Below are positions 1,322 to 42,766 of a DNA stretch of 42,877 nucleotides, in pieces. The stretch comes from Perkinsus olseni (lineage: Eukaryota). The translations under genes were made by a program, and so were the position numbers. The stretch's first letter is position 1. Every line of letters starts with the position of its first letter. Under the pieces are notes generated by a model, which did not search any database, was not told the DNA's origin, and worked only from the letters and a program-made list of their open reading frames with translations. Location of the stretch: assembly GCA_013115125.1 (NCBI GenBank), contig JABANN010000284.1:1-42877 (forward strand), written 5' to 3'.

Positions 1322-1362
<41 letters not shown>

Positions 1363-1449: not shown

Positions 1450-2231
1450 CACGACGATTGCCGTTACAGATAAAACGTCGACGCAGTTCTCGGATTTCTA
1501 ATGAGGGGAGCACACCTTTCAACCAACAACTCTCAGATAATATCGTGCCTGTCGTTCGACACGCAATGCCTCGTGATATTGTCTACTGCTAGGCTTAAGT
1601 GATCTATCATTAAATTGTGGACGGTTCATTGAGATTGGATATGCGTCAATTTGAGATTGACTCCTTCTACAGTATATCTAGGTATTGCGTTATCTCAGAT
1701 AACTTATCTGGGGCCGTATGCGGATCCTGATTTCGGAATCTGTGACCTTGATTCAAATCACCCTGTGATCTCGAGTCGTGATTCGACTCACACCCTGATT
1801 CAAGAGTACTGATTCAAATTCTATACTCGTGAGTAAGATTCGAGATTCGAGAGAAAGATTAGTTGAGTCCGAGTCAGAGTGAGGAATCGAGAGCGATTTT
1901 CTGTCTGACTGTCCAGCTCCCCTTGCTTAGATATGGCGGCCTCGTAACCCCCACCCTTGAACAGAAATCGACCCTCCCTGAACAGAAAATCGCGGCTGAG
2001 CGGAGGGGCTCCTTGGAGGTCCTTTCGCGTTGTAATTCTGGCTGCACACCTCGAGGATCTATCAAACTCCGGCGTCGCATTTTCTATGACATCGAACCCC
2101 TCTGGCCCAATTTCCATCGTCAAACACCCATTTCTCGCCGGTGGGACCACGATCAAAGTCTCCACACCGCAGTGAAACACCCTTCATAAACGCTACGGGG
2201 TATCGTTCTCCTCGACTCATGCTTTCCGTCG

Positions 2232-2303
2232 GCGCCGCTGGTCTAAAGGTTATGACTTCTGTCTGCCAAACGGAAGATCCGGGTTCAATTCCCGGGCGGC
2301 GCA
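2232..2303 (+). tRNA. tRNA-Gly(GCC)
   Basis: Acceptor stem GCGCCGC/GCGGCGC plus discriminator A, D-loop TGGTCTAAAGG, anticodon loop CT-GCC-AA in a TCTGT/ACGGA stem, T-loop GTTCAATTC, and a T4 run about 15 nt downstream. Confidence 0.95.
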
Positions 2304-2535
2304 GAGTTGACAATCACTTTTGGTGTAAACGCCTACCTGGCGGCGATTCACCACTATACCCCCCTTCGTCGTCCCCCCAACTGGCTTAAGATGCTCATCG
2401 TTTCCTACTCTTCGGTCTCCATCAACTCTCAATAATGATGAACTCTACACTGCTATCACCATTACACGTGTACCCCGTGGTAAATGAATACACATCACAC
2501 ATTCATGAAGCACTATTGCGTCCCCCGTAGCATGC

Positions 2536-3471
2536 TCATGCCGCAGGGGCGGGCGTCGTGGGAATACTGACGTTGATAGCAGGGACGATGTCAATCGAGG
2601 GGATAACTTTGCAGGTCTCCACGATGTTAGCGCCGTTATTCATGTGAGAGACGTAGCGACCAAAGCCGCCAATAGCAGCGGCGAAGGCCTTGATAGCCTC
2701 ACAGTCGAGCCTCACTCCCCCAAGCTTAGCGGGGAAGTCCACCATGTCGATCTGATTCTTCGTTTCCTTTGTAAATTGAGTCAAATGGGACAAGTCGGGA
2801 GCCACGAACTTGTCCGTCGGTCCATCACCGTTCCCATCACCGCCAAATTCGAGAGTGATGGTCGAATGACCGGGCAGGAAGTCAACCTCGCACTCGCTGC
2901 CGTCAGTAGCGGCAGCACTGGGCGCCGAGGAGCCGTCGTGATTACAAAGGACCTTGACGCCGTTGAGGAGAGGATCGCGACCACTGTGAAGGTAATCCGA
3001 GAGAGCTTGGCATGTGACAGCACGACGCTCTAGGTTGCCGATGAACCTAGGCCCGAACGTCGCCATCTGCCCGGCACAGCGTCCACTGACTAGCTTATGG
3101 ACATCGCCGGTATGAGTGAAGACCAAATAGGTATCGGGGTCTCCGAGGAAGACCTTGCAGGAGTTACCGGCCTCCTCTGGTGGTAGTACCTGGCAGATAG
3201 AGGACTCAGTTCTACGAGCAACAGAGTGTGGCCGAGCTGGCTCCATCAGCCCCACCCCTCACAACCCTCCAAGGCGCTTATAGGCTCCCGGTTCGAGTGC
3301 CCCTCTATTACCTCAGCCGAGTCTGTCTTGTAGGGGAAATCCTCTTGCTTGCCGCAGCCACCAAGGAGCCTGACGACAGGGGGGTCCCTTCCTGGTAGCT
3401 TCCCAAAGGACGGGTGTGACTCACGCTGTGATGGCCGCCGCGGCCACGCCAATAACTGCTGCTTTCAACAT
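2536..3471 (-). CDS. Secreted or membrane-anchored hypothetical protein (~252 aa, 3 exons) with lipobox-like signal peptide
   Basis: Exons 3471-3425, 3369-3312 and 3189-2536 splice in frame (GTGAGT..AG, GTAATA..AG) to give MLKAAVIGVAAAAITALLGGCGKQEDFPYKTDSAE|VLPPEEAGNSC...PAPAA*. Confidence 0.75.
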
Positions 3472-3593
3472 GGAAGGGTTGCTGCGGAAAGTGGCCAAAA
3501 CGATAGAACTACTGAGATCAACGCTTTTAGCATCCGAGACGCCGCGGTCGTTGGAAAGCGGACTTGGCTCGAATAAGTGCACGAAAAAATTAC

Positions 3594-4485: not shown

Positions 4486-6572
4486 ATGCCCGGCCAGTAC
4501 AGCCAATTCGTCCCGGGCTTCGAGCTTCGCTCCGCTAACGACAATAACAAAATTTATCTCTTCCATCATCTGCTTGGAGAGGGGGCATTTGGCCAGGTTG
4601 GTAGTCCTGCGGCACCACCGCTGCCACTGTTCTCGAGTAGGTGTGGAGGTGCACCGATCTGTCGTCGGAAACGGAAGTGGCTTTGAAGGTTGTCGATTGC
4701 AACGCCGTCGGTAATGAGTCGCTAAAGGGCATAGAGAAAGAGATCGAGCTCACTGGTGAGCGGTCCCCGCCCCTGCGCCTTCGCCAAGTTGGTTGGTACG
4801 TAGCCAAAGCCCGCAGCGCTATGGGTAAGCTGTGTCCCAAGTTCTATGAGGCCTTCCGAGTGGACCTGCCCGACCCTCTGGTACCTAGTGGGAGGTCCTT
4901 TGTCAAGTAATAGGATGGTGCCAGCAGCTGAAGGGGGGGTGGCTGAGTTAGGTACCTGATCATGTCCATGGAGTTCGTTGACGGTGTCCCGCTGGACAAG
5001 CTGATAGAATTCAGTCTCCTCAACGAAACCGTCTGCGCGTAGGGTCTCTAGCAGTGGTCCACCGGCCCAGCCTTGTCGCAGTTACGTCGTTTACAACATC
5101 CTATTGGCGCTTAAAGGCCTGCATGAGAAACATATTATTCACAGGGACATTAAGGCGGCTAATGTCATGATAGGTATGTCTGCTTTGCGATGAGGCTGAT
5201 GTAGTCGTTGGTTCAGGTAAATCCGGCCGAGTGGTCCTCTGCGACTTTGGTGTCTCTAGACTGCTCGAAAAGGAGGCGCAGGCCCTCACCTTCACCGGTA
5301 GGCCTGGCAGCGGCAGTAGTCGCTTCGGTGCGTATTACCGTTGTGACATGATGATGTCGAGTCGACACGGTTGGCGTAGAATGGATGAAAATTTTATGAC
5401 TTCGATGTAATTCATAAGATATTATAGTATATGTATCATAGTAACTTATTACATTAACTTAGAGTCTAATATGAAGTTTCTATTTTTTCATCCTCATGAT
5501 TACAAACGTAACACATCCAGGTCAGCGTAACACAAATTGTGTTACACAATCGATGGGGACAGTATCCGTCTCAGCGATGTCGCGCAACTGGAGACTTGGT
5601 AGAACTGATCAGGATTGTGATCATACTATAGTCAGAGGTCTCTCGCGGATGTGGCTGGCCAGGGCGTCGGTTGTCCATATGCCGTGGCGTCCCATGCTCT
5701 ACGTCATTCGGATTCGATGAGATCGCACATACTGATTGATGAGGATGCTGGCCAGTGGCCACAATCCTAACAAATTTGATTCGAAACTCTCACGGGGAAC
5801 AGACTTATGCGTACTGGAAAGTGCTCATGAGGGTTTGAAGTACCCTCTAGCATCTCTGCAGCGTTGTATTAGAAACAGAGACTACTTGTATGAGACTCGC
5901 TTCATACGAGTGGTGGACTTGTTACTAGTAGTGCAGCATGAAGCATGTAGAGGGCCTAACCTGTGCTAGGCACACCGTTCTGGATGGCCCCTGAGGTTAT
6001 CATATCATATTCGTTGTCACAGAAGTCGGGTGGCAGTGGCCAGGTGAGTGATGGAAGTCCCGAGGAGACTCAGAAGGCTACCGTAGGTCCCGGGGGGCAT
6101 GCGGGCCGGCTACGACTGCAGGGCTGATATATGGTCCCTTGGGGTTACTGCCGTTGAGGCCTGTCTCGGCCATCCACCGCATGCTGATAAGTTTGCACGT
6201 AAGCTCGTGGCCTCCAATCATGCCATCACCGATTGCCCCTAGGGATGCCGCATATGGTCTACCTAACGATAGTGAAGGACCCCCCTCCCACTATGGACAT
6301 GGCAAAGTACACAGGGACGGTCTTGAGGGACAGGAGCGCCGGTCGTGATAGGTTCTCGGACACCTACCGGGACTTCCTCGGCCATTGCTTCCAGAAGTGC
6401 CCTGATGACCGAATGACGGCTTCACAACTGCTCAAGTGCCGGACGGCTGTTTTTCCTGACACTTCTAGCTTTGTTGTTTCCACTCCTCATCAGACACGAA
6501 TGGATAACAGAGATGAAGGAGTACGAGAAGGACGTCGTGAAGGACAGGCTAATCTCCAATGTTAACACGTAG
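4486..6572 (+). CDS. Ser/Thr protein kinase, STE20/STE-group-like (about 10 exons)
   Basis: Spliced motifs occur in order: LGEGAFGQV, VALKVV, EKEI, MEFVDG, IIHRDIKAANVMI, LCDFGVS, TFT|GTPFWMAPEVI, YDCRADIWSLGVTAVE, DRMTASQLLKHEWI, with TAG at 6570-6572. HRDIKAAN plus GTPFWMAPEVI is typical of STE20 kinases. Confidence 0.92.
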
Positions 6573-6798: not shown

Positions 6799-6800
<2 letters not shown>

Positions 6801-11629: not shown

Positions 11630-12141
11630 CGGCATCATCCCATACCTGTACCATGTACCGTGTATCGTTCCCTTTCCAGCGGATCACAGGCTTCTCTTTC
11701 GTCCGCTCCGTGACCGGGTTGAGGCTGGCATGAGCTCCGGGACATGTCGGTCCCGTTGGACAATTGACAGGACTCATAAGCTAGTGTATGTGCGAGATCC
11801 TGATGATCAGATCATCTCGCGAATCAATCGCGAGATAAAGTTACGAAATTAGCCCGCATGACTAACTCAAAGGCCACAAACAGCGCCTGTTGCTGATCAA
11901 CCGAGTGGAGGTGACCCCTTCTTAAGTTAAGAAGGAATAAGAATCTTAACGGGAAAAGAAAGAATAAGAGGCATCTGGGATACCTAGAGGCTCCTGGCTA
12001 GAGCATCTGCTGCGGTTGTGGGATCCAAATCCTCCAAACAACAAAAGATTGGAGAATGAGTTCTCTCATGGCTCCATGACGATACATAGGACGATCAGAC
12101 TTGAAGAATGTCGTTCTCCTTATACTCGTCGCCTGTAAGCT

Positions 12142-15012
12142 TCACCAGAGACCGCCACGAGTGAAATCCAGGAATGCTTGCTGCATCCCGTCGGGCTTAT
12201 TGCGTATAAGTCTGTGGCTGCCACCTGTCACCTAGGTAGACACCATTAACAGCTACCCTCTCTCGTAGACGCTGTACCTCTATGAATGCCAACTTCCCTC
12301 CATTCGAGTACGTCAGAGCCCACAACTTTCCCAAGAGACCACCTCTATCATACTAAAGGATGGACCAGAATGATGCACGGAAGCAATAACCATCGACCAA
12401 GAAACTCCTGACTACCTCAAGGTCCACGGGCGTGACAGCCCCCAGCTTCTCGCCGTAGTCTTGAGCGCCCTTCAGCTTGAACAGCCACTCCTTCGTACCA
12501 TCCGCGCTCGTGAGGTAGTCTACATCACCATTAACGACCAGTACCTACGTCAGTGATACCCCGGTAAGTTACCGGCGGTAACTCTCAATCCTAGACCGCA
12601 GTAGCCAGCCATCAGCAGATAATGACTTGCTTCATTCAAGACCAATGAGAAACATCAAATCATCAAATCCATATGCGCAAAAATTTTGGGAAGTTCATTT
12701 TCTGTCGTTCATTCGTAGACGCCGAGATTATCAATATTATGATCATGTTCTATCCTCAAAGCGTCAACCTAATAACGATATCTTCGGACTTGTTCTCACT
12801 TTCAAACCGTGGTCGAGGAGCTTTGCTACATAGAAGGTTCCATCGTAGGCTACATACTTAAGGGAAGCATGAAAGACCTGAAAAGTCAACCGCCGCCTGT
12901 GCTATCAGTCTTCCGTAGAGCGGGCAACAGTAGTCACCTCATCATTTGTCGCTCTCCATTTCTTCGTGACACCGAGTTCCTGCTTGACGGATGGGTTATT
13001 GAGCAAATCACGCGCCTGAGGGTAGGGCACCGAGTACCGTAAGAATACTTTCCTTAGGTTACTGGTACAGGATCTGATGTCACTCTACTACATGCTACTC
13101 GCGACGAAACAATAATACACATTCCCAGCGAGAGTGTCGGAGCTTACTTTTCCTGGCCTGAAAGCGTAGTATTTGCACTCCTCTCCTGGACTCACGCGGA
13201 CGTCGTAACTGGAAGAGTTGGAATGATGACATCAAGCTCAGCTTGACAAGCTTTAAAGGAAGAGGTAATCGGGAAGTTTTCGACGCCGGAGAATTCGAGA
13301 GAACGGATTTCTTGGGCCGATCTCGGGAACACTCACTAGCTTATGTAGGCATCGTCTAGAGGTTTCTGAGTGACACGATCGCAGGTCCCCACGGCTCCCT
13401 CGCACCGATCTGATAGGCAAGCCTTTCCGAGGAGTTCTCAGGACGTCGACTTACCGGGTACAGGTGCTCCACCGGGACCGTTTGCATTGCACTTGGAGAC
13501 TTCCTCTTTGCACTTTTGCAAGTCGTCCTGCATCTTATCGAGTCTGAGGTAATTGTCGGTGAAAGGGCGCAGCGATCTACACCATTTTCCGATCAAGTAA
13601 AATATTCTCTCGATCGATTGATTTCGATAGCAAGTTATCGAGTGTCATGGGAATAAAAGAATTGTCAAAGCAACTTCGTTTGTCACCGAATTTAGATCCA
13701 TGTGCAAATTCGATTCATTCGAGCAATTTGCCATTCTATTTACATCGATTTTGACCCAATTTCGCTATCTGAATCATTCTCCAACTTCGGCAAGAGCCCC
13801 TGCTACTACAACCTCCTTCCTGCAACTCGAACACCTACTCTATTGTGTTTCCTCACTTTTCACGCTAAGCATGGAAAGTGAGATTTTATATGCGCGACGT
13901 GAGGTTTTTAAATTTAATAGAACTTAAAAAATCTTTTATTCGATCGGGAAATGGTGTAGGGCACGCACTCCTCTTGAGGAAGCAGTTTTCTGCCCGTGGC
14001 CAACTTGTAACATCCGTAGTATCTGGGACGATGATGAGCTTATTGACGCCAAGACAGCTAGATGGACCGTGTCCATTGGACACTCACATATCATAAGGTC
14101 CTACGATGCCAGAAAACAGCGTTACACCTTTGAGAGCGACGCTCGACCCCGGGGACTTCAGGATCCGCTCTGCCACCATGGCAGCGATCAGAGCTGCGGG
14201 ACACAAGGTGACAGCACTACGCAGACGAGTGCCTTGTAACGGCAGTCATACCAGACGACGAGGATCCCACCAGATGGACGTCCCTGTTGAGGTTAGGGTG
14301 CTTCTTGAGGACGCCATCGACGAAGGTCGCCCTGCGTGGCAGGGATGGAAGGCCCATCGCTCTTACTCAGAGGAATCTCCTCTTATTCAGAAGCTCTCAC
14401 ATATGCTCGATAGACTCTTCCAAGCTAGTCTCGACTGCTCCCTCACTAAAACCGGTTGGTCCAGGCGCGTCGACCCAGATGCCACTGTTATGTTTAGTCC
14501 ACGAGTATCTGCACAATAGTAGGGAGACCATGATCATGGTCTCCATGAGGGACTCGTAATGATTGCCTCACTCGTTAAGTATTATGCCTCTCCCATCCGG
14601 AGTCATTCTACACGGCCCGTTGGCCCCCATCAACGTACCGAGGCTGCTGCCACCAGGACCACCAGCCATGTAAATGAAAGTCCGCGGTGGAGCCGACGGA
14701 TCTGGTTCATCAGCTTCCATAGCAACGTAGAAGTACCTTCAAGCTGCACGAATTAGCATGAGTTGGCAGCAGAAATCATATACTTGTTCACTGGGCCGAC
14801 TTCGATATAACCAAACTCTTGTTCACCTTTGCCATAAAGGCACAATGTGCTACCGCTTAGCGAACGAGTCTGTGGACACGCCGGCGGACCACCTAAAGAT
14901 AGTCGATCCTGGCTCCAGCTCAGCATTTGAGTATCACACCTTTCCCCCTGAAAGAGCCACTGACAATGGTGGCTACTACTGAGGTATAAATTAATGATAG
15001 AGGAACGATCAT
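12142..15012 (-). CDS. Serine carboxypeptidase (peptidase S10), full-length, secreted, many exons
   Basis: Signal peptide MIVPLSLIYTSVVATIVSG, then FIYMAGGPGGSSL..NGPCR, NEYSWT, WVDAPGPTGFS, VHLVGSSSSA, VLVVNGDVDYLT and VTGGSH, with the stop at 12142-12144. Confidence 0.88.
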
Positions 15013-16020
15013 GGTGATCGGATGGCCAACCTCGGGCTAACCTTGATAGCAAAGTTAAGTTCGGACTCTGGAGGAGTTTAATAATAGCAACGACAGTCGC
15101 ATGAACTCAGAGAAGTACGTTTCACTCCCGCGTTCTTGATGGGACAGTCTGAGACTGTGACACTGAGTCAGTGACGCTAACCAACCAATACATGCTATTT
15201 GCGAGTAGATGACGGGGACAACTCATACTCCCACAGAAAAATAACAACTGCATGCTGCCATATTATGCTGTGAAGTAGCGATGCTATACGTCGTGGTACT
15301 CTACACTGGGAAAGCCATGCAACAACTCGGTACAATGTGGGGCACAAAAACAAGGTGCGCCTCCCCACTGGTGTCGGTTAGGTCGGCAGTACCTTACGAC
15401 GGCAGCGAGGGCAACGACTGAAAGAACTCGGTTAAAGAAGTGTGAGAGCATCGGGAGGACGATGCCCATCTGCTCAAATAGTTACCGAGTATTGGCGGAC
15501 TCAAGCGTGGTGCCCTTGCACTGACCTCCTAGCGTGGGAGGCGAAACTGGGACACGAGATGTCCCATTGTGCATACAACATACCGGTATCTCTTCGCACC
15601 GGTTTTGACCTTGTTAAACCGCTGGCTAGTCCTCTGAATAAAACCAGGACAGATCGGGTTAGAGGGATGATCATGTATACACCGTTAAGTATGAAACCAT
15701 TCAGAAGGAACCGCCGTGTCTATGATAGCACTATGTTATCCAATTGTTCAATATTTGGAACGCACACGCCCATGGATTAAGCTCATTGCCAATGAGTCAT
15801 TGGTCTTCGGAATGGTCTACTATCATGGGTTTCATAACCCGTTACATACTCTACGAAAGAAGGCTAACAACACAGTTCTCCGTAAATCTCCCGGGAAAAA
15901 CTGCCGAGAGCCTTCCCAGGAGATTTCCCGGGAACAGTCACTTGGAAGGGCATAGTTCCGATCCTTGAAATAATCACGAAGAATCATGCACGGCAGTTGA
16001 ATGCCCCCCTTTCGGCACCA

Positions 16021-19000: not shown

Positions 19001-19575
19001 ATTTCTTGCGCAGCATGCGGCTTCTAAGGCTAAGATGGGAACCTGCCAATCGATACCGTCGTCACGTCGATACCGTCATCACAGACGCGCGTCCGAAGCT
19101 CAGACTGGTTGCTGACCAGTGATCAACGATCGAGGCCATGGATATAACGTCTGCGCCACAGATATAATAACGCGTCGCGTTAGTGTAATGCGTTGAACAC
19201 CACCGTTAAACGGTTACCGTTCCACGTAGCGCGGGTGGAACCTTACTGTATTCGCATTCAGGTGGCCGAGCAAGAACGGAAGAACAAAATCGAATGTGCT
19301 ATGAGGGATTCGATCCCCAATGTTAAACTCAACCAGGGTATACCTCCCACTGCAAGTGGTTCTAATCGCCACCTCCTCGTGCGTTGCCAGGCCGACGAAT
19401 CGACTGGGTCATCCAGGAGTCGGTCACTGAGGCAGCCTCAGAGCTGTGGTCGGCATTTGGATCACATTTTTCGTACTGGAGGCATGAAGATGTTATCTCT
19501 TTCATCGTAGACCAGCTCGTATGGTGTAGCGAGGATGATAAGCAGTGGCGCGATAAGAAGAATAGTTTCTTCTGA
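16021..19575 (+). CDS. DDHD-domain intracellular phospholipase A1 (SEC23IP/DDHD2-like)
   Basis: WWE-like N-terminus (WRRFTPRDEASLEAAY..GRYMVNL..VYWEE..VMRSSWF), FLIHGIG, lipase motif GHSLGSVIGFDLL, LFLLGSPLGLFLTIR, VFNIFHPNDCVAYRVEPLV and LNQGRRIDWVIQE..SHFSYWRHEDV. The start codon and exon-2 frame are ambiguous. Confidence 0.9.
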
Positions 19576-33087: not shown

Positions 33088-34780
33088 CATCGCCGATGGG
33101 GCTGGTCTATCAGCGCGTCCCGTGAAGTATCCGCAAGCGTGAAGCCCAAGCCGCGATAAGTCGTCTGTTGTAAATTTTACCGTACACTGAGTATCCTATC
33201 GTCAATGTAATGCCGTTGCATGTTTCGAATTGAGTCGAAGTGGAAGTGAGTGACTCCATCGTGTAATGAGCTTCAAGCGTCTGATTACGTGCTTGTCATT
33301 GCTGATGGTTGCTGTCTTGCGCTTCCCATCAATGAGTTCTCAGTGGAAGGTCTCCTGGCTCGGGTGGCTGCTGTGTATCGTTATTTTGATGGATTCATCT
33401 AAATTCGCTTCGGAAGTAACTTCCGTAGTGCGGCATCGCCTTTCCCGAAGTATATTCGACCCAGTTTCCATGGCGTTACCTGCAAAGAGCATCAGCGGGC
33501 TGCCTACAAAATGGTCCCTCAATTTGGGCCACGAATGAAGGGTTTGGAGATATCGTGATTACTCGAATCCACATGAGAGCGTGATGAATAGAGTCGTTCA
33601 CTACGGTGGAGCTGAGCGAGGCCACGGAACCTTGTTGTACCACCTCGAAGACGAAACGTTTGTTGGCTTCCGGGTTTGCAGGTTCTGGTTCCAAGATCTT
33701 GGTTTGTCCTTCAATTAGCGGTTCGGAGGAAGACGGAATCACCGGACTCTGCAACTGTGCGCCGAGTATGAGAGTCGTGCCGTTGAGAGCCTCACATTGT
33801 AAGGTTGGGGTCCGGTTATGCAGAGTTAGATGCAACTTGCAGTGTAGCCCGCTACTGTCAAAACTAAAAATCCTACGGATAAAATATAATCCGAAGTATG
33901 GCAGTCAAGTGCGCCACATGCGCGCACACATCGTATGCATGAGCGTGATGCCCTACTCGCACTTCACATCAAGGAGACCTCGTTCGGACGGTATGACGAG
34001 GCTTCGGCTCCAACGCGGACTAGAAGTATATGAGAGTTTGCCCGGAACTCATCAACGCGACTCTCAGGAGGTGTCATTAAGACGATCGAGAATTGACTAC
34101 TGAGGGCGCCTTAGTACGCCTTAGTAAGGCGTAGGCCTTATCGGAGCTCGAGTATACGAAATACTACGGCTACCTACTACGACTCAGAAGTTGGATACTG
34201 CATATGAATAGAAGACTGGCCATGGCTCGGCCCGAGCAAAACACACGTGCTCGTTGTTGCACGCGATCGTCGCATTTAGCGTCGAAAGATAGACAGAAAC
34301 GTAATAGCGAGTAACAACTCACGTCCAGGTGACTTGACAACATCACTTCCCACCAGGAAGTGGCGATCATGGGTGTCTATCGTGGGAAAAACGAGGAAAA
34401 CAAAAAAACGGGGGAAATGGAGGCGCGAGACACCTACCGGCGGCCGTGGTCCGAGCAACGGCACGGCCGTGCGTCCGTAAGGGTCACAGCAACGACGAGA
34501 GCGACCGCCTATGAGCGGAGCTAAAGAGGCAGAGTTAGCTCACCGGCGGTGAGCTGCTCACCTATGATGACAAGATGGTGCCAATGCCATGGCGACATCA
34601 CTGGCAATGAAGGAGGTTCGTAATGGATGAAGTTCACATCGCAAAGAGCTCAGGTGTTGGTCTCGAGGTCTCGCGGCTGTTACCGGAGGCATGGTACAGC
34701 ATGCCATGCGAGCATTGCCAACACACCAATGATACAAGGGTTGTATTATCAACCGGCAAGAGGAGTGGCTTTCACCAAAA

Positions 34781-36472
34781 CTAATAGGTGTGCGAAAAGA
34801 GGAGAAATCGCTTGTGCCATGAGGGGTACCAGAAGAGGAAGCTGATTTGAGCATCGAAGTTCAGCCAACCGGTTAAATGCCACTTCTGTAAGTATTTGTC
34901 GACGGAGACGGCCACGTAGTGGAACGTGATACTAGCACTTGCACTGGGAAAATCGATCGATGCACTTGTGCCGATGCTGCCATTAGCCCGCATGAAGTTA
35001 GCAGGGCCAGCAAGAACATCGAGATTGCTGGTTAAAGTGATCTCAATGATGTTACCGATTGGGTTAGGAAGATGAACCCTGAAATACGCCCAAGCCTCGA
35101 TAGACGCAATACATATGCCGGTGTCAAGATTATAGTTACAATTGCCCGTGGCCTCGACGCATATGGTTACGCTGATGGAGACGCTCGAGCCTAATTTGTA
35201 GACCACCGAGCAGCCATCGCCATTAACTTCGAAGTCAAGGTCAAAATCATCGTACCACATCGTAATATCTACGTCCAAGATTGCCCCACGCTCAGTTCTC
35301 TGGACATTCGGGAAATCTACGTGAAGATACCCGTCAGCATAACTGTCGTTAGCTGCAGAAACCTGAATAGCAATACAGAAGTCTTTGTTACCGTCCCAAG
35401 CCTGGCATCCCTTCGGATACTGGAAGTCAAACGCGACGAGGCGTCGAGAACCAATGTGCCTTCCGAAGTACTTAGCAGCCGCCGATCCAGCTTTGGCGGC
35501 AAAATACGGGATAATTGACGAGGACTTGTGATGCTTGTGATTTTCAACCATGCAGCTGAGTGGATGAGTTTACCAGGGTCGGAAGGTATATGTCCAGAAA
35601 GTAGACTATCAACCGCTGACCCGAAGGTGTCAAGATGCTTCCTTGTGGACCTTAGGCGCCTGGAAGCTCCCTGGTTATGGTGATTACCGATTTCGTACAA
35701 GTAGAAGAGGCGCTCCTTAGCCTGGTCGGCGGACAAAAAGCTGTTATTCTTATGAAAGCGGGTGAAGAGCACTTCCTGATGGTATGCATTTTCATGCATG
35801 CTATTGCTTGCTAGTAGCAAGTTGCTACAAGCTTCAACGGCTTCTCGTCATGCTCGTCCATGAAAAGAGTCCAGGTATCCGGTGCTAGATTAGCGTCGTG
35901 CGCATATGAATGGTTGAAGCCTGTGGCTGGATCGACACCTTTGAAGCCGTACTTCACCCACAAATTCTGCCTCACACCATCATTCTCCACCAGAGAGCCA
36001 TAGGGGGTCCACCCGTCTTCTTCCAGCGACAAGGAATCATCTGCTTTGATATGTAGCTTATGAGCTGGAGGAGGGGCACTTCCGATCAAGTCCGCTTCAC
36101 CGTTCCTGAGACTATGCACAGTAACTAGCTCCGGAGTCGTCGTCGTCATGAAGTACTGATAAGGATAGCTAGGATGAGCTTCAACTTTGGTCTCAGAGTC
36201 TGAGAGTCAGAGTAGTGATGGGTCTGAGACTCAGACCCATCACTACCGACAATCACATGAGACCTGAACATGAGAGACTTGCCGTCTTCCATACCGGGAA
36301 GGGTCAAGCCAGCCGTGTGCGTGGAGATAGACTGGCTGCAAGGTGGTGGTTTCCCCTGTGCATCTTTGAGGCCTTCAACGGAGTAGAGTTTAGTCTCAAG
36401 ATGGAACTCGTAGTGGTGAGAAGCAACAGAGGCTATGGTGACGAAGTTTACCAGGAAGACTGCCGTCCACAT
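34781..36472 (-). pseudogene. Frameshifted paralog of the 552-aa secreted protein at 38610-40268
   Basis: Collinear with the intact copy (GLKDAQGKPPPCSQSI..AGLTLPGM, SLEEDGW, ANLAPDTW, SLLSGHIPSDP, QYPKGC) but split over four ORFs. The breaks are a 38-nt insertion (36198-36235), a 14-nt insertion (35808-35821) and a +2 shift near 35525-35545. Confidence 0.88.
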
Positions 36473-38609
36473 GAGAGAGTGACGTATCAAGGGAGAACTG
36501 TAGGCAAGCGGTTGCAAAACTTCGATTCGTGACCAGTGCCCATAGCCTTACAATAGCCGAACTCTTCAATCGATCGCGGATGAGTAGGAAAACGCTCATA
36601 CGTGCTTGGTGACGCCAGGTCACCGACATGCCCTGTCTCGCTTATGTGCCTAGACAGCTGCTACGTTATGAGACACCTTAGGCGTGTCTTACTAACAGTA
36701 CGGTCCAAGCATGTAACGAGGATTTTTGCCAAGGGTAACCTTGACCAGATGGGAAGGCAGCAGGTTAGATTCCAACCCTCGCGTGCATGACTGGAGCTCT
36801 GCGGTGTCTTCCGTGATCGGGAATTCTGACTCGAGCCCTCCCAGTGCTGATTCATAGGCCTCATTAACTCCGCAGTTCTCCGGGTGCTACTGACCCCGGG
36901 TGAGATGCCATTAAAGGAATCGTACTCGGTGATTTGCGAGGAATCCCACCGCCGCAGCGCGCGTGCCACACATGCACTATCATGACAACGTAGTGACGAC
37001 TATAGTGGACGCTATGTAACAGCTACAGCCGGATTCAGTAATATTCAGCTGTTAGACTATCGTCGCTGCACCACCTTCACTGCTACCGCCTACCATTAGT
37101 ATCAGATAACTGTGCGACCTCATTCTGTGCCTTGTTGCGTGCCTCTATTGACTCTTAACCGAAGGCTTCTTCAAGGTGCAGAAGGCGGCTTTCTGAAAGC
37201 CGGGCTTTCAAAGCCCCATGAGTATACGTGCTACACTAAGCTTAGCTGAGTAAGCTACAGTCTATATATAGCCTATAGATCACATCGGCGAAATTCGAGG
37301 GGGACTCAATCTCCTCAAGACTGTTTAACCTTTCTTCGAGCCCCGTCTCGAATTGCCACACTGTACTGAGTTATGGTGCACGCAGAGCGCCCGCTCAATT
37401 GCGAAGCTGTTGTGACTGCTGCTCTCTCCGATCGATCCCAGTCCTAGGCTCCCAGGTGGTGGAGCTCTTCGACTATAGGGAGGAACCCGCGAGCTTAATA
37501 GAAGGCAGGAGGGCCTGCTTCTAGGATATTGATGTTGCCGATAAGGCCCTATCGGAGGAGCCGTGCCAGCACGGTGACTGAGGCGGCGATACCGAAGCAG
37601 CACCAATCGTACTGTACCATAGCTTACTAAAGGAGTCTGGAGTTACAGCGTTGCTTTTACAATCATAACCAGGTGAGTGGTGACGCCCGCGCTGTCATAG
37701 AACGAGTGACTACTCAACCTTTCACGACGGAGTGGCAGAGCTCGCTCAGCTAAGCCGTTAACTCGAGGCAGCCAGCGGGGAATACCCAGTGCGCTCGAGT
37801 TATCCCGGCTCAAATTACTATCCCAAAAAGGGCTTTCGCGCATAACTGACTAAGGGTCCCTTAGTAAGGGAGTCTGCCGATCAGCTTCAGTAAATTCGTT
37901 TGCTGTGGGGACCGGTTTTATTCCGCCTTGGCTGAAGAGAAATAGTTCGTGCGTACACATGCGCGCACGAACACTCGAGATGATCCGAGTTAACGATCGA
38001 AAAGATTGGGATGATCGCAATGAACTTCCTAGTCAATATCATCATTTACAACACCAGAACAACTTTTCATGCCAAGGGCGACGAAACAAAGTAAATCTAG
38101 CCGTTGGTTGTATGAATGCTCAGACGACCGAAATAGTTTTCCTCACGGCTCTCAGAATCTGAAGCTCCACCTGAAGTTCGTCGCCGTCGAAGCCCGCAAT
38201 GGCGAAAATGGATTCAACCATGACTCTACAGACCGGACAACAGACCAGTTAGGACTGTTGCAGCAGAGCAACACATATCGAACAGATGCAAGGTTTGCCT
38301 TGCTTTGACATCACTTCTAACGAGAACGGAGACTACGGCGGACTATCAGCCGAACCCCAGTACTGTACTGCCAGTACTACTGACAGCGCACATAGAAATA
38401 GTATAGCACAAAAAAAAGGAGTTTACCTATGTTGATGAGGCAGCGTCAGTGCGACACTGGGATAACGAAAAAAAAGTTACATGGTAACCAACTGTGAGAA
38501 ATACCCAACCAATAACCATCAGAACCAACCACAGGCTCGCCGAAGGCTTCGCGATCCATGCTTTAATAGCATTGTTATGTGAGATAAAAGATAGAAAGCA
38601 TCAGGCAGA

Positions 38610-40268
38610 CTAAGTTGAGTAGGACCAGAGGGTATAGGTTTCTCCCCATGTTGGACTGAAGAAGGGCGTGCTGACTTTGGCTGAGAGACGCACATTTGAA
38701 GACATCTGCCACTTGCCCAGGTTGTTATCGACAGTAACGGCCAAGATGTCCAACTTGATACTAGCGCTTGCTATTCCGGCGGCATCGGCACTGGTGCCAA
38801 TGTTACCATAAGCCCTAACGTGATTGTTATTACCAGCATTGCACTCGATTTTACTATCTATGGTGACATCAATGATGTTGCCAACCACAGGCAACGTAAT
38901 ACCGAAAGTAACCGAGGCAGGTATATACGCAGAGAAGGTAAAAGCCTTGTCGTCGTACTCTGCGTCACCGTCAGCTTCCAGGCAAACAGTTACGGAGATT
39001 GCAACACTTCCTCCTAACTGGAAGACCAGTGCGCAGCCCGAGGCCTCCACATAGAGGTCGAGAGCCAAGTTCCCACTTTCCAGTTCGAGCGAAAGCTCGA
39101 CGGTCAGAGAAAGTTGCGCTGTACGACCCTTCTTTTTGACATCGGGGAGCTGCATATCCAGGTCGAGAGTGGCAAACGATGATAACAAACTCGCATCGAG
39201 CGTAATAGTTGTACATAACCCGTCCATATCGTCACTTTCTGCGCATCCTTTCGGGTACTGATATTCGAGTAGCTGCCGTGGAGGATTTTTCAGCCGTTCG
39301 AAGTACACAGAAGCCGCAGTTCCATCTTCGACGGTGAAATAAGGGATCACTTGAGAGGATCGTAGATGGCGGCGTGACAGCCAGCTGGCCGAATCGGCAA
39401 GAGAGTCAGGGTCGGAGGGTATGTGGCCAGAGAGTAGACTTTCGCGCATCGCCGAGAAGGTCCCACCCTGCTGTTCTGCCGTAGTAGCACCACTGGCAGA
39501 CATCGGGGCTCCACCAGTATTGATCTGGTACAAGTCGTAGAAGCGCTGGTGTGCCTGCTCTGAGGGCATAAAACCATCCTTTTTCTCGAAGTTCGTAATA
39601 GTCATCTCCTGGTGGATCGCATGGCCATGCATAGCGTTGGTAGCAACAATCTTCAAGGGCTTCTCGTTATTCCTATCCATGTAAAGGTTCCAGGTATCCG
39701 GTGCTAGATTAGCCATGTAGATAAAGGTATAGTTGAACCCTGAGGAGTGGTCTACACCTTGAAAGCTTTTCTTCACCCACTCATTCACTCTCACGCCATC
39801 CTTCTCCATGGCCCCACGGAAGGTCCACCCGTCGTCTTCCAGTGACATGGAATCAGATGCACTGATAGGTAGAGTATCAGCAGCCTCAGAAGCAACACTC
39901 CCAATGAAGACAGCTTCGCCATTGATCAGACGTTCCATGGTAACCGAGCTCTCACTTGAGGTTCTCATGAAATACTGGTAAGGATAGCTAGGATGGGCTT
40001 CTACTGTGGTTTCAGACCCATCACTACCGATCATCACGTGAGATTTAGTGGTAAGAGCGCCATCATCCATACCGGGAAGGGTCAGGCCGGCAGTCTTGGT
40101 AGCGATGGACTGGCTGCAAGGTGGTGGCCTCCCTTGTGCATCTCGAAGACCTTCGATGCAGTAACGTCTAGTCTCCAGCTGGTATTCGTAGTAGTGATAG
40201 GCCTTGTCGGGAGTACCCGCAACGGAGCCCACAAAGAGAAAGCTTCCAGAGAGGAGAGTCGTCCACAT
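38610..40268 (-). CDS. Intronless secreted protein of unknown function (552 aa), beta-rich Cys-containing C-terminal half
   Basis: Long ORF. The start is placed at MWTTLLSGSFLFVGSVAG because it is a signal peptide and aligns with MWTAVFLVNF.. of the paralog. Confidence 0.88.
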   Translation of the reverse strand: MWTTLLSGSFLFVGSVAGTPDKAYHYYEYQLETRRYCIEGLRDAQGRPPPCSQSIATKTAGLTLPGMDDGALTTKSHVMIGSDGSETTVEAHPSYPYQYFMRTSSESSVTMERLINGEAVFIGSVASEAADTLPISASDSMSLEDDGWTFRGAMEKDGVRVNEWVKKSFQGVDHSSGFNYTFIYMANLAPDTWNLYMDRNNEKPLKIVATNAMHGHAIHQEMTITNFEKKDGFMPSEQAHQRFYDLYQINTGGAPMSASGATTAEQQGGTFSAMRESLLSGHIPSDPDSLADSASWLSRRHLRSSQVIPYFTVEDGTAASVYFERLKNPPRQLLEYQYPKGCAESDDMDGLCTTITLDASLLSSFATLDLDMQLPDVKKKGRTAQLSLTVELSLELESGNLALDLYVEASGCALVFQLGGSVAISVTVCLEADGDAEYDDKAFTFSAYIPASVTFGITLPVVGNIIDVTIDSKIECNAGNNNHVRAYGNIGTSADAAGIASASIKLDILAVTVDNNLGKWQMSSNVRLSAKVSTPFFSPTWGETYTLWSYST

Positions 40269-41021
40269 GGATGGGTGATACTTCGAAAGAAAACTGATGA
40301 GACTGCGCAAGCCAATCGAAAGCTTCGATTCGTCGCCAATCCGTACCATAGCTGAACTCGTCATATCGATCGGAAGGAGCAGGTGGATGTTTCCGCGTAC
40401 CTGTTGACACTCAGTGTCTCCCAACCGATTTCAAGTCTCCAACCCTCCAGAAAGGATCGGGGCCTTTGATTGGCCACCTTGCGGATTGGCAATGCTCTTC
40501 ATTTTCAAGCTTCTCAGTTTTTGCCAGGAAAGTCTCAGCCTGCGACTGCTTCATGCAATACTGGAGATTCCGAACTCCTGTCTGCTGGAGCAATGGACGA
40601 CTTGCAATCCTGGACGTAGGTGCCTTGTTCCTTCCGAAGAGTTTTTCGGACACTTCCACAGAGCAGAGATGAAGGCGTGGGTGAGGTTTTGTGCCCGAGT
40701 TCGCCAAGTTCCAAGTTAGCAATTGGATTGGTCTGGCATTGACTTGGTTTTTCTGGCTGCTGCCAGCGGCCCGCTGGCGCCATCAACTGTCTCCTTGGGC
40801 GTTGTCCCTGACGGTCTGCTCCAAGGGCTCACATGTACCGTACACGAGCAGGCTACTTCAGTGTTGTGGAGAGTGTTGGTGGATTCCTATTCTCCTTGGA
40901 TGCAACATATGTGACTGACGAGGTCTAGCGTTTAAAGTTGGTCTGATAAGCTGGGATAGGCTCGAGGGACACTGTCCCTGGGACAGTGTCAAAGGCGCGA
41001 CGCGCCGAATTGGTATTACCA

Positions 41022-41168
41022 ATGATGCGCTTCGCTCCGCTGTGCTCGAGACGAGACAAATAACAAGATTTGGATTGGTCAGTAGTAGTACTACTACTAC
41101 TTACTAGTTAGTAATCTTGTTAGGGGGGAGGATGATGCGCTTCGATCCGCTGTGCTCGAGACGAGACA
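41022..41168 (+). repeat. 37-bp direct repeat pair (41022-41058, 41132-41168) enclosing a 73-bp palindromic spacer
   Basis: ATGATGCGCTTCG(C/A)TCCGCTGTGCTCGAGACGAGACA occurs twice, 36/37 identical. The spacer has TAACAAGATT..AATCTTGTTA arms and GTAGTAGTACTACTAC. Confidence 0.9.
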
Positions 41169-41384
41169 CTTCCTTCATGGATTTACATGGCTTTAGATGA
41201 TTTAGTACGTCTCTCCCTGTGTGTTGAGTCCTATGTCACCAGATACACCCGAATGGCACAACAAACAAGATGCATGTACTCACCATTGTGAGAAGTCCTC
41301 GTTGTCGGCGAGTCACTACGACACTATGAAGATTTCTGGTTTGATTTGAGTTTGAGTTTACCCAACTCAGCAGAGCGCTCAACA

Positions 41385-42766
41385 ACCATTACTCCACATA
41401 ATTCAATGCAGGCGCAGCAGCCCGACGACAGCGCCAGTGCTACCGTTTGCGGCCCCGAGTCGAGTCCTCTCAAGTTGAGAGTCTCAACTTATAATATAAG
41501 TCTTATATGCATTCTTTGGTCTTCCATTCGTGGCAACCAAAGGCTTCAACTCCTCTTAACTTCAGATCACCAGCGGAAAGTTTGTGGTTTGTAGGCGAGC
41601 GAACTCTTATCGTTTAACGATAATCGTTAGAGCAGTATTGAATTGTAAGTATTTTTGACGAAAACACTAAGTGTCCTCGTCGCACACTCTACGGTACTGC
41701 CACATTCGTCGTGAGTTATGGTTCATGAACTCATCTCATCAGCTCCAGTGAGTTCGATCAGTGCGTATGAGAGACCTACGACGTAAGTGGGCCGTAAGGC
41801 ATATAAGCCCAGGGGCCTGAGAAGCATCCGACATAATATCACGTCGATATTGATCATTTATTTGGTGTGCATCACAACTTCTGATGCGGACAGTGATTTT
41901 TGCTGGTACTGGCACCACTTTGATCGTTCACGCTCCACAGACTGTCGACGACAGTAGCATCGCTGCCAGCAAGCTAATTTGAAATTCGCGGGAAAACTTA
42001 TTGCTAACTGGATTGGTGTCTGACAGCCACTGGCTGTCAGCCGTTGGCTGACATGCTACGTTCGATGCTTTATTCATAGCTTGTCACGGTGAACTTCATC
42101 AGTGGTGAGCAGATGAACTTCATTTATCCGATGTCTATCTGGTGGACTTCATCGGATGAAGTCCTGGACCAGATTGCTTGGCAACCATTACTCCGCATAA
42201 TTCAATACGAGGGGAGCATCCCGACGAGAACGCCAGTGCTACCGCCTGAGGCCCGGAATCGGGTCGAGTCCTTTCAATTCTTATGCATCCTTCGTTCTTC
42301 CGCTCGTGGTAACCCCAGAGGGTGAACCCCTTTCCCTTTTCGATCCCTAGGAGAACTTCCTCCCGCTGCGAAAGGTTTGCAATGGTACGGAGTTGATTGA
42401 TTCGTCGGAAAGTATCCCATCCGATGGAATCCATCGAAGGCGAGCGATTAAGCTCTCATCATTAGGGTGGTATTGAATTGTAAGTATCTCTGCCGGACAC
42501 TGTACGAAATCGCATTCGCCATGAGCTTTGATTCATGAACTCACCTCGCCGGCTTTAGGAAGTGTGGTCAGTGCCTAGAGCTACGACCTAGGTGGGCCGT
42601 TAATAATGGCATGGCAGCCCAGGGGTTGGAAGCAGCCAACATAACATGTCACATGGATTTCGGTCGTTGTCAATGACTCATTGATTCGGTGCGCATCACA
42701 ACTTCTGATTCGGAAGGTCAGACAGTGATTTGTACTGATACTGGTACTACTTTGATCATTCACGCT
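41385..42766 (-). repeat. Diverged tandem duplication (~550-580 bp units, 41385-41934 and 42183-42766), probably decayed gene copies
   Basis: Ordered shared blocks: CAACCATTACTCC.CATAATTCAAT, CGCCAGTGCTACCG, GTATTGAATTGTAAGTAT, TTCATGAACTCA, GCATCACAACTTCTGAT and TTTGATC.TTCACGCT. The minus strand gives IKVVPV..ITV.RIRSCDAH in both copies, with stops and indels. Confidence 0.8.

What the first reader, a model, noticed from the sequence alone, without database searches (positions are those of the whole stretch)
1696..42040. Window-wide signature of perfect palindromes with a single central base, often centred on AGT/ACT
Seen in non-coding or decayed DNA: CAGATAA-C-TTATCTG (1696-1710), CCTTCTTAA-G-TTAAGAAGG (11917-11935), CCGGTAA-G-TTACCGG (12561-12575), TACGCCTTA-G-TAAGGCGTA (34115-34133), AGCTCACCG-G-CGGTGAGCT (34537-34555), CGGCTTTC-T-GAAAGCCG (37186-37202), ACTAAGGG-T-CCCTTAGT (37849-37865), GACACTGTCCC-T-GGGACAGTGTC (40968-40990), AAGTTGAGA-G-TCTCAACTT (41472-41490) and CTGACAGCCA-C-TGGCTGTCAG (42020-42040). 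The arms are unrelated to each other, so this is not a repeat family but locally copied sequence, often nested. About half of my hand-picked cases have AGT/ACT at the centre and several others GAC/GTC. Established: hairpin sealing and opening (hAT excision, RAG P-nucleotides) and polymerase-theta snap-back synthesis both leave inverted footprints. Inference: an unusually active and possibly sequence-biased hairpin-forming repair or recombination process shapes this genome. This is my best candidate for an undescribed system here.
Basis: partly seen in the sequence, partly recalled or inferred. Interest (0 to 1): 0.78.

Follow-up and report, generated by a model that had tools for sequence, protein, structure and literature searches.

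The report
Transposon excision scars in Perkinsus DNA
The odd palindromes are real and far too many for chance, and they are best read as uniform 14-base scars left where a cut-and-paste transposon with an 8-base target duplication jumped out, so this is a known kind of mark in an unusually regular and dense form.

Summary
All 10 listed palindromes are perfect. Only palindromes with one central base are in excess: 55 with arms of at least 7, against 3.5 in shuffles. Spacers 0 and 2-9 are near chance. Arm length peaks at exactly 7 (38 vs 2.1), and 16 of 23 close neighbour centres lie exactly 7 nt apart.

The real unit is a 22-nt structure built on an 8-mer W: W[1-7] + revcomp(W) + W[2-8]. There are 13 perfect copies and 30 with at most 2 mismatches, against 0.0 and 0.19 expected, and only for an 8-base unit. 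Paralogues in the window carry a single 8-mer where the structure sits, so each is a 14-nt insertion. The central bases complement the outer bases of W. The AGT/ACT bias is real (20 of 55, p=8e-6) and fits the hAT target pattern nTnnnnAn. No structure lies in supported coding DNA.

Best reading: excision scars of an 8-bp-TSD transposon that forms hairpins on flanking DNA, most likely hAT, in Perkinsus olseni. Repair opened the hairpins far from the tip and annealed the ends through the duplicated target. No element or transposase is in the window. Not supported: polymerase theta snap-back, an undescribed system.

The parts
1689..1710 (.). Perfect 22-nt scar (14 of 14 pairs), inferred target GTTATCTG.
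5529..5550 (.). Perfect 22-nt scar, inferred target AACACAAT.
12561..12582 (.). Perfect 22-nt scar, inferred target CCGGTAAC.
15782..15803 (.). Perfect 22-nt scar, inferred target CTCATTGG.
18595..18616 (.). Perfect 22-nt scar, inferred target GTTTCGCG.
20271..20292 (.). Perfect 22-nt scar, inferred target GCCGTCAT.
35807..35828 (.). Perfect 22-nt scar inside the DUF6740 pseudogene. It is a 14-nt insertion relative to the intact paralogue and breaks the reading frame.
36191..36246 (.). Compound scar in the pseudogene, a 38-nt insertion relative to the intact paralogue. It holds a 17-nt inverted copy of one flank and a 7-nt inverted copy of the other. Each is centred on the complement of the ancestral base; the target on the minus strand is GTCTGAGA.
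37180..37216 (.). Two scars at targets shifted by 1 nt (AGAAAGCC, 13 of 14 pairs; GAAAGCCC, 14 of 14 pairs).
37850..37871 (.). Perfect 22-nt scar, inferred target CTAAGGGA.
40965..40990 (.). Perfect 22-nt scar, inferred target AGGGACAG.
41467..41508 (.). Two perfect scars at targets that overlap by 2 nt (CTCTCAAC and ACTTATAT). The tandem paralogue at 42130-42620 has neither 14-nt insertion.
41608..41629 (.). Perfect 22-nt scar, inferred target TATCGTTA. The paralogue has a single 8-mer (CATCATTA) in the same orientation as the outer segments.
697..718 (.). Scar with 1 mismatch (13 of 14 pairs).
13232..13253 (.). Scar with 1 mismatch.
14062..14083 (.). Scar with 1 mismatch.
40756..40777 (.). 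Scar with 1 mismatch.
41934..41955 (.). Scar with 1 mismatch.
42016..42040 (.). Scar with 1 mismatch.
42415..42436 (.). Scar with 1 mismatch, in copy 2 of the tandem paralogues.
42663..42684 (.). Scar with 1 mismatch.
11795..11816 (.). Scar with 2 mismatches (12 of 14 pairs).
19201..19222 (.). Scar with arms of 6 only. Both outermost pairs fail.
38357..38378 (.). Scar with arms of 6 only, just downstream of the intact DUF6740 gene.
37236..37257 (.). Weak candidate scar (12 of 14 pairs).
42695..42716 (.). Weak candidate scar (12 of 14 pairs).
11919..11950 (.). Variant scar. The left target copy is followed by a 9-nt inverted tract, 2 filler bases, a 5-nt inverted tract, a centre A and the right target copy TCTTAAC. 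The two centres and the two copies agree on the target TTCTTAAC.
34106..34141 (.). Variant scar. A 9-nt-arm palindrome is followed, 3 nt later than in the standard form, by a direct copy of the 6-mer GCCTTA.
34537..34562 (.). Variant with centres 9 nt apart (arms 9 and 7). It behaves like a 10-bp unit with a truncated third segment.
38610..40424 (-). Intact DUF6740 gene, the paralogue used as the 'before' state. It holds no scar.
34784..36547 (-). DUF6740 pseudogene, read in four frames. Two of its three frame changes lie at scars (35807-35828 and 36191-36246); the third (35320-35569) does not.

Best explanation
The palindromes are excision scars of a cut-and-paste DNA transposon that makes an 8-bp target-site duplication (TSD) and leaves the donor flanks as covalent hairpins. 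The hAT superfamily is the most likely source. The host is the alveolate Perkinsus olseni.

Proposed sequence of events, with the target written t1..t8:
1. Insertion duplicates the target (inferred).
2. At excision, each flank is nicked one base outside the element and sealed into a hairpin. The tip of the hairpin is the complement of the TSD base next to the element. This is established hAT chemistry; it is inferred here.
3. Both hairpins are nicked at least 8 nt from the tip. Unfolding gives long palindromic 3' overhangs (inferred).
4. The left overhang now carries revcomp(TSD) and the right overhang carries TSD. They anneal over these 8 nt, the flaps are trimmed and the gaps are filled (inferred).
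5. The product is t1-t7, comp(t8), comp(t7..t2), comp(t1), t2-t8. That is 22 nt where 8 stood before, a 14-nt insertion holding two overlapping 15-nt palindromes, each with a single central base, 7 nt apart. This is the structure shown in the sequence.

When annealing fails, the ends are joined with inverted tracts of other lengths (variants at 11919-11950, 34106-34141 and 36191-36246). The AGT/ACT centre bias is the element's preference for T at TSD position 2 and A at position 7.

My confidence that these are scars of an 8-bp-TSD, flank-hairpin transposon is 0.7. That the element is specifically hAT is about 0.5.
For: 1. Only spacer 1 is enriched (55 vs 3.5; spacers 0 and 2-9 are near chance). 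A one-base centre cannot be a folded loop, but it is what an offset covalent hairpin gives.
2. The scan for W[1..L-1]+rc(W)+W[2..L] over L=4-13 with 100 shuffles picks out L=8 only: 13 perfect, 22 with <=1 mismatch and 30 with <=2 mismatches, vs 0.0, 0.01 and 0.19 expected. L=9 gives 1 and L=10-13 give 0-1.
3. The boundary is sharp. In 27 sites chosen on the inner 12 pairs alone, the 7th pair holds in 24 of 27 and 22 of 27, and the 8th in 9 of 27 and 8 of 27, which is chance.
4. Direct 6-mer repeats are enriched only at offset 14 (43 vs 8.6, z=12).
5. Paralogue 'before/after' comparisons. The tandem copy at 42130-42620 lacks three 14-nt insertions and has single 8-mers in the orientation of the outer segments. 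The intact DUF6740 gene lacks a 14-nt and a 38-nt insertion of the pseudogene. At the 38-nt site the centres are the complements of the ancestral A and G.
6. In the variant at 11919-11950 the left centre and the right copy agree on t8, and the right centre and the left copy agree on t1.
7. Target bias: T at position 2 / A at position 7 in 20 of 50 vs 24%, p=0.011. AGT/ACT centres 20 of 55, p=8e-6. Hermes prefers 8-bp nTnnnnAn targets (PMC10368747, passage read).
8. Ac/Ds footprints are palindromic insertions centred on the complement of the base next to the element. In yeast the arms reach 20 nt, and microhomology is used after hairpin opening (PMC5873905, passages read).
9. These are real mutations under selection: 0 of 30 structures and 0 of 55 centres lie in the 9545 nt (22%) of supported coding DNA (P=5e-4 for the 30). 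Copies carry 0, 1 or 2 mismatches, which suggests different ages.
Against: - No element is present in the window. No transposase domain was found in 120 stop-to-stop ORFs of >=90 aa. No TIR pair flanked by an 8-bp duplication was found in two scans (0 real hits, 0.05 per shuffle).
- I could not test whether any Perkinsus genome holds hAT elements. The four paper searches that named Perkinsus found no report of hAT elements or of such scars there.
- Classic hAT footprints are heterogeneous, with short inverted tracts and deletions. Here short-arm palindromes (arms 3-4) and offset-8 repeats are at chance. The near-uniform 22-nt product therefore needs a special repair route that I only infer.
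- The target bias is modest: 40% at positions 2 and 7.
- Nine palindromes with arms of exactly 7 have no third segment (3439, 15151, 17693, 19175, 19434, 20720, 30310, 33418, 41016). About 2 such palindromes are expected by chance, and the model does not explain the rest.
- At 35807-35828 the intact paralogue matches the middle segment better (7 of 8) than the outer ones (5 of 8), so that site is ambiguous.
- Three pairs of scars share almost the same target. I estimate about 0.5 such pairs by chance, and this needs hot-spot re-use.
Confidence: 0.7

Rival explanations
1. The same kind of scar, but left by another superfamily with an 8-bp TSD (Mutator-like such as Muta1, Merlin, P, Zisupton) or by an unclassified Perkinsus element.
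For: Muta1 has 8-9-bp TSDs and forms flank hairpins (PMC5499845, passages read). Merlin-related genes with 8-9-bp TSDs elsewhere are reported in Perkinsus marinus (PMC8101967, passages read). One site has centres 8 nt apart, i.e. a 9-bp unit. No hAT element was seen here.
Against: Muta1 excision with TSDs present was about 90% precise in yeast (PMC5225508, passage read). The Merlin copies in P. marinus lacked detectable TIRs and TSDs. I know of no hairpin intermediate for Merlin or P (recalled, not from a call). The unit is 8 bp in 30 sites against 1 for 9 bp. The T2/A7 preference and the centre being the complement of the adjacent base are the documented hAT signature.
Confidence: 0.15
2. A transposon-independent process: a host nuclease (for example a domesticated transposase) or a repair pathway makes staggered breaks and hairpins at ordinary sites and creates the 14-nt insertion without any element having been there.
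For: No element is present in the window. The product is very uniform. Neighbouring events cluster at 37180-37216, 41467-41508 and 36191-36246.
Against: The product holds two direct copies of the 8-mer plus an inverted one. Hairpins formed on a single unduplicated target would give an 8-bp inversion or no length change, not +14 (my derivation, an inference). The 8-bp unit and the T2/A7 preference are integration signatures.
Confidence: 0.08
3. Replication or repair template switching, either polymerase theta snap-back synthesis or quasi-palindrome correction, copies the opposite strand locally.
For: Both processes are known to leave short inverted templated insertions.
Against: These processes need a loop of several bases and give variable lengths. 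Here only spacer 1 is enriched and the length is fixed at 7+1+6+1+7. Paralogues show no pre-existing imperfect palindrome at the sites.
Confidence: 0.04
4. A sequencing, amplification or assembly artefact.
For: The window does hold an assembly artefact, a poly-G/poly-C tract around a 10-N gap at 1100-1400. Raw reads could not be inspected.
Against: 0 of 55 centres lie in supported coding DNA, which is 22% of the window. Copies show graded decay with 0-2 mismatches. The target-site bias and the agreement with the ancestral bases of paralogues are not expected of chimeric reads.
Confidence: 0.03

Closest known systems
Excision footprints of hAT transposons (Ac/Ds in plants, yeast and Candida; Tam3, hobo and Hermes recalled)
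   Same: An 8-bp target duplication. Inverted (P-nucleotide) tracts centred on the complement of the base next to the element, hence an odd palindrome. Use of microhomology after hairpin opening. Arms up to 20 nt in yeast (PMC5873905, passages read). Target pattern nTnnnnAn (PMC10368747, passage read).
   Different: Here one product dominates, the whole TSD inverted between the two copies (+14 nt). The short tracts and small deletions typical of plants and Candida are not enriched. The density is about one scar per kb of non-coding DNA, and no element is present locally.
P nucleotides at V(D)J coding joints (RAG) and Transib excision
   Same: A covalent hairpin forms on the flanking DNA and is opened off-centre, giving palindromic additions. 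Long tracts appear when tip opening is defective (recalled).
   Different: RAG and Transib hairpins join directly opposite bases, so their palindromes have no central base, and Transib makes 5-bp TSDs (recalled). Here spacer 0 is not enriched (5 vs 2.3) and the unit is 8 bp.
Mutator-like element Muta1
   Same: 8-9-bp TSDs and hairpins on flanking DNA (PMC5499845, passages read).
   Different: Muta1 excision is mostly precise when TSDs are present, and without TSDs it leaves small deletions (PMC5225508, passages read). No stereotyped inverted scar was described in the passages I read.
Polymerase theta templated insertions (snap-back) and quasi-palindrome template-switch mutations
   Same: Short, locally templated inverted insertions.
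   Different: Their length and loop vary and they have no fixed 8-bp unit. contradict this reading.

Membership tests
hAT excision footprint | Built on an 8-bp target-site duplication. | tested here: met
   The length scan picks out L=8 only (13, 22 and 30 sites vs 0.0, 0.01 and 0.19 expected). The 7th pair holds in 24 of 27 and 22 of 27, the 8th at chance.
hAT excision footprint | Inverted tract centred on the complement of the TSD base adjacent to the element (a single central base). | tested here: met
   Only spacer 1 is enriched. The centres complement t8 and t1. At the 36191-36246 site the centres are the complements of the bases of the intact paralogue. The definition is from PMC5873905.
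hAT excision footprint | The site was a single copy of the 8-mer before the event (empty-site comparison). | tested here: met
   Paralogues, not alleles, were compared. Three sites and one fit. One site (35807-35828) is ambiguous in orientation.
hAT excision footprint | Target preference nTnnnnAn. | tested here: met
   The match is weak but significant: T2/A7 in 20 of 50 vs 24%, p=0.011. A.T around centres in 26 of 55, p=5e-5. The consensus is from PMC10368747.
hAT excision footprint | hAT elements (TIRs; transposase with BED and hAT dimerisation domains) present in the genome. | tested here: not met
   This holds for the window only: no transposase domain in 120 ORFs and no TIR+TSD pair. The rest of the genome could not be reached with these tools.
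hAT excision footprint | The same site is occupied by an element in another allele, isolate or species. | not testable with these tools
hAT excision footprint | Heterogeneous products with short inverted tracts and small deletions, as in plants and Candida. | tested here: not met
   Arms 3-4 are at chance (563 vs 521; 135 vs 131). Offset-8 direct repeats are at chance (12 vs 7.9). This is a difference in repair, not in the cleavage chemistry.
Mutator-like (MULE) excision | TSD of 8-9 bp (Muta1) or longer, with mostly precise excision. | tested here: inconclusive
   30 sites have an 8-bp unit and 1 has a 9-bp unit. Precise excisions would be invisible here.
RAG/Transib-type P nucleotides | Even palindromes (no central base) and a 5-bp TSD. 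| tested here: not met
   Spacer 0: 5 vs 2.3. L=5: 4 vs 0.86 perfect.
Polymerase theta snap-back / template-switch insertions | Variable length, a loop of several bases and priming microhomology. | tested here: not met
   Spacers 2-9 are near chance. The architecture is fixed.

The most novel reading that the evidence does not exclude
Perkinsus carries a very active and still unrecognised cut-and-paste system, either elements that almost always leave again or a domesticated hairpin-forming transposase. Its breaks are repaired by one stereotyped route: the hairpin is opened away from the tip, and the ends then anneal through the duplicated target. If so, the genome is being seeded at about one site per kb of non-coding DNA with 15-22-nt perfect palindromes. 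These scars would be a countable fossil record of transposon traffic and of the parasite's end-joining pathway. Some may be tolerated inside genes as tiny introns; a public gene model already places introns over two of them.
Probability: 0.15. Interest if true: 0.8.

Novelty: new variant of a known kind. Interest (0 to 1): 0.55.

Why it matters
Excision scars are normally too short and too varied to be recognised in a genome sequence, so how often cut-and-paste transposons leave is almost never measurable. Here the scar is long, uniform and easy to find, with 30 copies in 43 kb. That would allow several things:
- counting past excisions;
- dating them by their decay;
- reading the element's target preference;
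- inferring how this alveolate parasite of molluscs repairs hairpin-capped breaks.

There are also two practical points. The scars break reading frames, and at least one public gene model appears to hide them as introns. They also create many perfect palindromes that could be mistaken for regulatory or structural motifs.

Tried and rejected
- First count. It did not separate nested spacers, so spacers 3, 5 and 7 looked enriched. The recount with minimal spacers removed this.
- Idea that the middle segment is the ancestral copy, raised by 35807-35828. I rejected it as a general rule because three sites and the 36191-36246 site show the outer orientation. That one site stays ambiguous.
- Third centres at 40986 and 42037 (12 of 14 pairs). 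I read these as chance 4-nt extensions, not as further events.
- Resident elements. An exact 8-bp TSD with TIR matching >=11 of 14 gave 73 hits, all in the poly-G/poly-C tract. A TSD matching >=7 of 8 with TIR >=11 of 12 gave 0 hits. Pfam on 120 ORFs found no transposase.
- Protein atlas search for the DUF6740 protein: best scores 0.75, below the lead threshold, so not used.
- Papers. Not held: (Yu 2004, Hickman 2014, Lazarow 2012). What I say of them comes from citations in PMC5873905 or from recall. One search failed on term syntax. 'DUF6740' returned 0 papers. The searches naming Perkinsus and the search on genome-wide palindromic transposon footprints gave no report of these scars. The Amoebophrya introner paper concerns inverted repeats at intron ends, not footprints.
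- Not checked: other Perkinsus contigs, haplotypes and raw reads; the presence of hAT, Ku, Lig4, Artemis/Pso2, Mre11/CtIP or POLQ genes. No eukaryotic DNA collection was open, and I held no query for those genes.

Full report

I then counted every perfect inverted repeat by spacer length and compared the counts with dinucleotide-preserving shuffles.

A first count gave 57 palindromes with spacer 1 and arms of at least 7, against 2.7 expected. It also showed apparent excesses at spacers 3, 5 and 7. These were nesting artefacts, because a spacer-1 palindrome contains a spacer-3 one.

The recount used the minimal spacer and masked the poly-G/poly-C tract at 1100-1400 (40 shuffles). It gave 55 vs 3.5 for spacer 1. 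Every other spacer was near chance: spacer 0, 5 vs 2.3; spacer 2, 2 vs 2.0; spacers 3 to 9 between 1 and 8 against 1.6 to 2.4. The excess is therefore specific to palindromes with exactly one central base.

The arm length is not a decaying tail. It peaks at exactly 7 (38 vs 2.07), with 19 vs 8.25 at 6, 6 vs 0.55 at 8 and 6 vs 0.17 at 9, while arms of 3 and 4 are at expectation. The central triplet bias is also real. AGT/ACT accounts for 20 of 55 centres against 12.9% expected (p=8e-6). A and T flank the centre in 26 of 55 against 22% (p=5e-5). GAC/GTC is not enriched, at 5 of 55.

**2. What the thing really is**

The list of centres shows that they come in pairs exactly 7 nt apart. Of 23 neighbour pairs within 30 nt, 16 are at 7 nt, and shuffles give 0.08 such pairs in all. 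Two reflections 7 nt apart define a 22-nt structure on an 8-mer W: W[1-7], then the reverse complement of W, then W[2-8].

I scanned for the analogous structure with unit lengths 4 to 13 (100 shuffles). Only 8 stands out, with 13 perfect copies, 22 with at most one mismatch and 30 with at most two, against 0.0, 0.01 and 0.19 expected. Unit 9 gives one site and longer units give none or one.

To avoid circularity I chose 27 sites on the inner twelve pairs only and asked about the next pairs. The seventh pair holds in 24 of 27 and 22 of 27, and the eighth in 9 of 27 and 8 of 27, which is chance. Direct 6-mer repeats are enriched at offset 14 only (43 vs 8.6, z=12). Offset 8, which a plain tandem target duplication would give, is not enriched (12 vs 7.9).

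By my count from the lists, 37 of the 55 centres belong to the 30 structures.

**3. Before and after**

The window happens to hold two pairs of old paralogues.

*DUF6740 gene and pseudogene.* An intact DUF6740 gene (38610-40424, minus strand; Pfam E=1e-129) has a pseudogene copy (34784-36547) that reads in four frames. In the alignment (77% identity), two of the three frame changes fall at the structures.
- At 35807-35828 the pseudogene has 14 extra bases.
- At 36191-36246 it has 38 extra bases. These are a 17-nt inverted copy of the left flank and a 7-nt inverted copy of the right flank. Each is centred on a base that is the complement of the base in the intact gene at the corresponding end of the 8-mer GTCTGAGA (minus strand).

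*Tandem ~800-bp copies.* These lie at 41330-41800 and 42130-42620 (75% identity). They differ by three 14-nt insertions in copy 1 (41467-41488, 41487-41508, 41608-41629). Copy 2 has one 8-mer at each place, in the orientation of the outer segments.

Each structure is therefore a 14-nt insertion into a formerly single 8-mer, much younger than the duplications around it. One site (35807-35828) is ambiguous, because the intact gene matches the middle segment in 7 of 8 bases and the outer ones in 5 of 8.

**4. Variants**

Eighteen centres lie outside the 22-nt structures.
- Six have a direct copy of the adjacent 6-mer nearby and parse as the same event joined differently. The clearest is 11919-11950. 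The left copy is followed by a 9-nt inverted tract that runs into the flank, two filler bases, a 5-nt inverted tract, a centre and the right copy. The base inferred for t8 from the left centre equals t8 in the right copy, and the base inferred for t1 from the right centre equals t1 in the left copy (target TTCTTAAC).
- Two centres sit in a short AGT/ACT repeat (41081-41101).
- One (1004, arm 9) has no partner.
- Nine have arms of exactly 7 and no third segment. About two are expected by chance. The rest remain unexplained.

**5. Real mutations, not artefact**

None of the 30 structures and none of the 55 centres lies in the 9545 nt (22% of the window) of coding sequence supported by Pfam or homology (P=5e-4 for the 30). 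The pseudogene, in contrast, carries them. Copies carry 0, 1 or 2 mismatches, as expected of events of different ages. A library or assembly artefact would not avoid exons or decay. The poly-G/poly-C tract around the 10-N gap is a separate matter and probably is an artefact.

**6. Organism and context**

The DUF6740 protein has nine hits. One is the window's own protein, and the eight named ones are all Perkinsus (olseni, marinus, chesapeaki). A named P. olseni protein maps at 97-100% identity onto most of the pseudogene. The other genes are intron-containing eukaryotic genes: CFA20, a protein kinase, DDHD, RRM_2 and WWE.

No transposase domain was found in 120 ORFs. No TIR pair flanked by an 8-bp duplication was found in two scans.

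**7. Mechanism**

*Shown:*
- the architecture;
- the unit of exactly 8 bp;
- the single central bases being complements of the outer bases of the 8-mer;
- the origin as a +14 insertion;
- the preference for T at position 2 and A at position 7 (20 of 50 vs 24%, p=0.011).

*Established elsewhere (passages read):*
- hAT, Mutator-like and Transib elements and RAG leave hairpins on the flanking DNA (PMC5499845).
- Ac/Ds footprints are palindromic insertions centred on the complement of the base next to the element. Arms reach 20 nt in yeast, and microhomology is used after hairpin opening (PMC5873905).
- Hermes makes 8-bp duplications at nTnnnnAn targets (PMC10368747).
- The one-base offset of the first nick in Hermes is from my recall.

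*Inferred:* an element inserted and duplicated t1-t8. At excision both flanks became hairpins tipped by comp(t8) and comp(t1). Both hairpins were nicked at least 8 nt from the tip, which is what an Mre11-type endonuclease does at blocked ends (recalled). The unfolded 3' overhangs then carry revcomp(TSD) on the left and TSD on the right and anneal over 8 nt. Flap removal and fill-in give exactly the 22-nt product. The alternative register restores the single target and is invisible. Failure to anneal gives the variants.

A one-base centre cannot arise from fold-back priming, which needs a loop. This, together with the fixed length, rules out polymerase theta snap-back and quasi-palindrome switching. 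Even palindromes, which RAG and Transib would give, are not enriched.

**8. What speaks against it, and what stays open**

- The element itself is missing from the window, and I could not search other Perkinsus DNA.
- The target bias is modest.
- The near-absence of the short, varied footprints typical of hAT elsewhere means that the repair route must be unusual, and that part is inference.
- Three pairs of events share almost the same target (37180-37216, 41467-41508, 36191-36246), where I estimate about 0.5 by chance. Re-use of hot spots or local hopping would explain it, but this is untested.
- A Mutator-like or unclassified 8-bp-TSD element cannot be excluded.

**9. Comparison and novelty**

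The kind of event, a hairpin-derived transposon excision footprint, is known. Three things appear new:
- the dominance of one complete product, the whole target inverted between its two copies;
- its density, about one per kb of non-coding DNA here;
- its occurrence in Perkinsus.

The four searches that named Perkinsus and the search on genome-wide palindromic footprints found no report of it. Papers of subscription journals and Repbase reports were not searchable. I rate it a new variant of a known kind, with interest 0.55.

**10. Verdict**

Confidence is 0.7 for excision scars of an 8-bp-TSD, flank-hairpin transposon and about 0.5 for hAT specifically.

Noticed in passing
window 1100-1400: Long poly-G and poly-C runs on both sides of a 10-N gap (1244-1253). 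They form 40-73-nt inverted repeats and account for two of the 57 arm>=7 palindromes (1126, 1362). They look like an assembly or base-calling artefact at a scaffold join, not biology.
   Followed up: partly
window 34784-36547 (minus strand): A DUF6740 pseudogene. A named public P. olseni protein model (P0007) maps onto it at 97-100% identity over most of its length. The model has gaps at 36207-36238 and 35776-35828, which lie over the scars. The gene model therefore seems to turn frame-breaking scars into small introns. Whether they are really spliced is unknown.
   Followed up: partly
window 41330-42620 and 32921-32969: A diverged tandem duplication of about 800 bp (75% identity), with a third partial copy of 49 nt some 8.5 kb upstream. 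It is non-coding as far as Pfam shows, and it was useful as an internal 'before/after' control.
   Followed up: partly
window 21775-25005 (plus strand): An uninterrupted 1076-aa ORF with no Pfam match. It is the longest ORF in the window and holds no scar.
   Followed up: no
window 37180-37216, 41467-41508, 36191-36246: Pairs of scars whose inferred 8-bp targets overlap or are shifted by 1-2 nt. There are three such pairs, against about 0.5 that I estimate by chance. This suggests repeated use of the same site, or that a fresh scar is itself a good target.
   Followed up: partly
window 41081-41101: A short run of AGT repeats followed directly by ACT repeats, i.e. a palindromic microsatellite. 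It gives two overlapping centres (41088, 41091) that do not fit the 22-nt structure.
   Followed up: no
window 3439, 15151, 17693, 19175, 19434, 20720, 30310, 33418, 41016: Nine 15-nt palindromes with arms of exactly 7 and no third segment on either side. About 2 are expected by chance. The excision model does not explain why a solitary inverted tract should stop at exactly 7.
   Followed up: partly
window 27609-28700 (minus strand): A CFA20 (cilia/flagella-associated protein 20) gene split over three ORF pieces, so it has short introns. This fits a flagellated alveolate.
   Followed up: no
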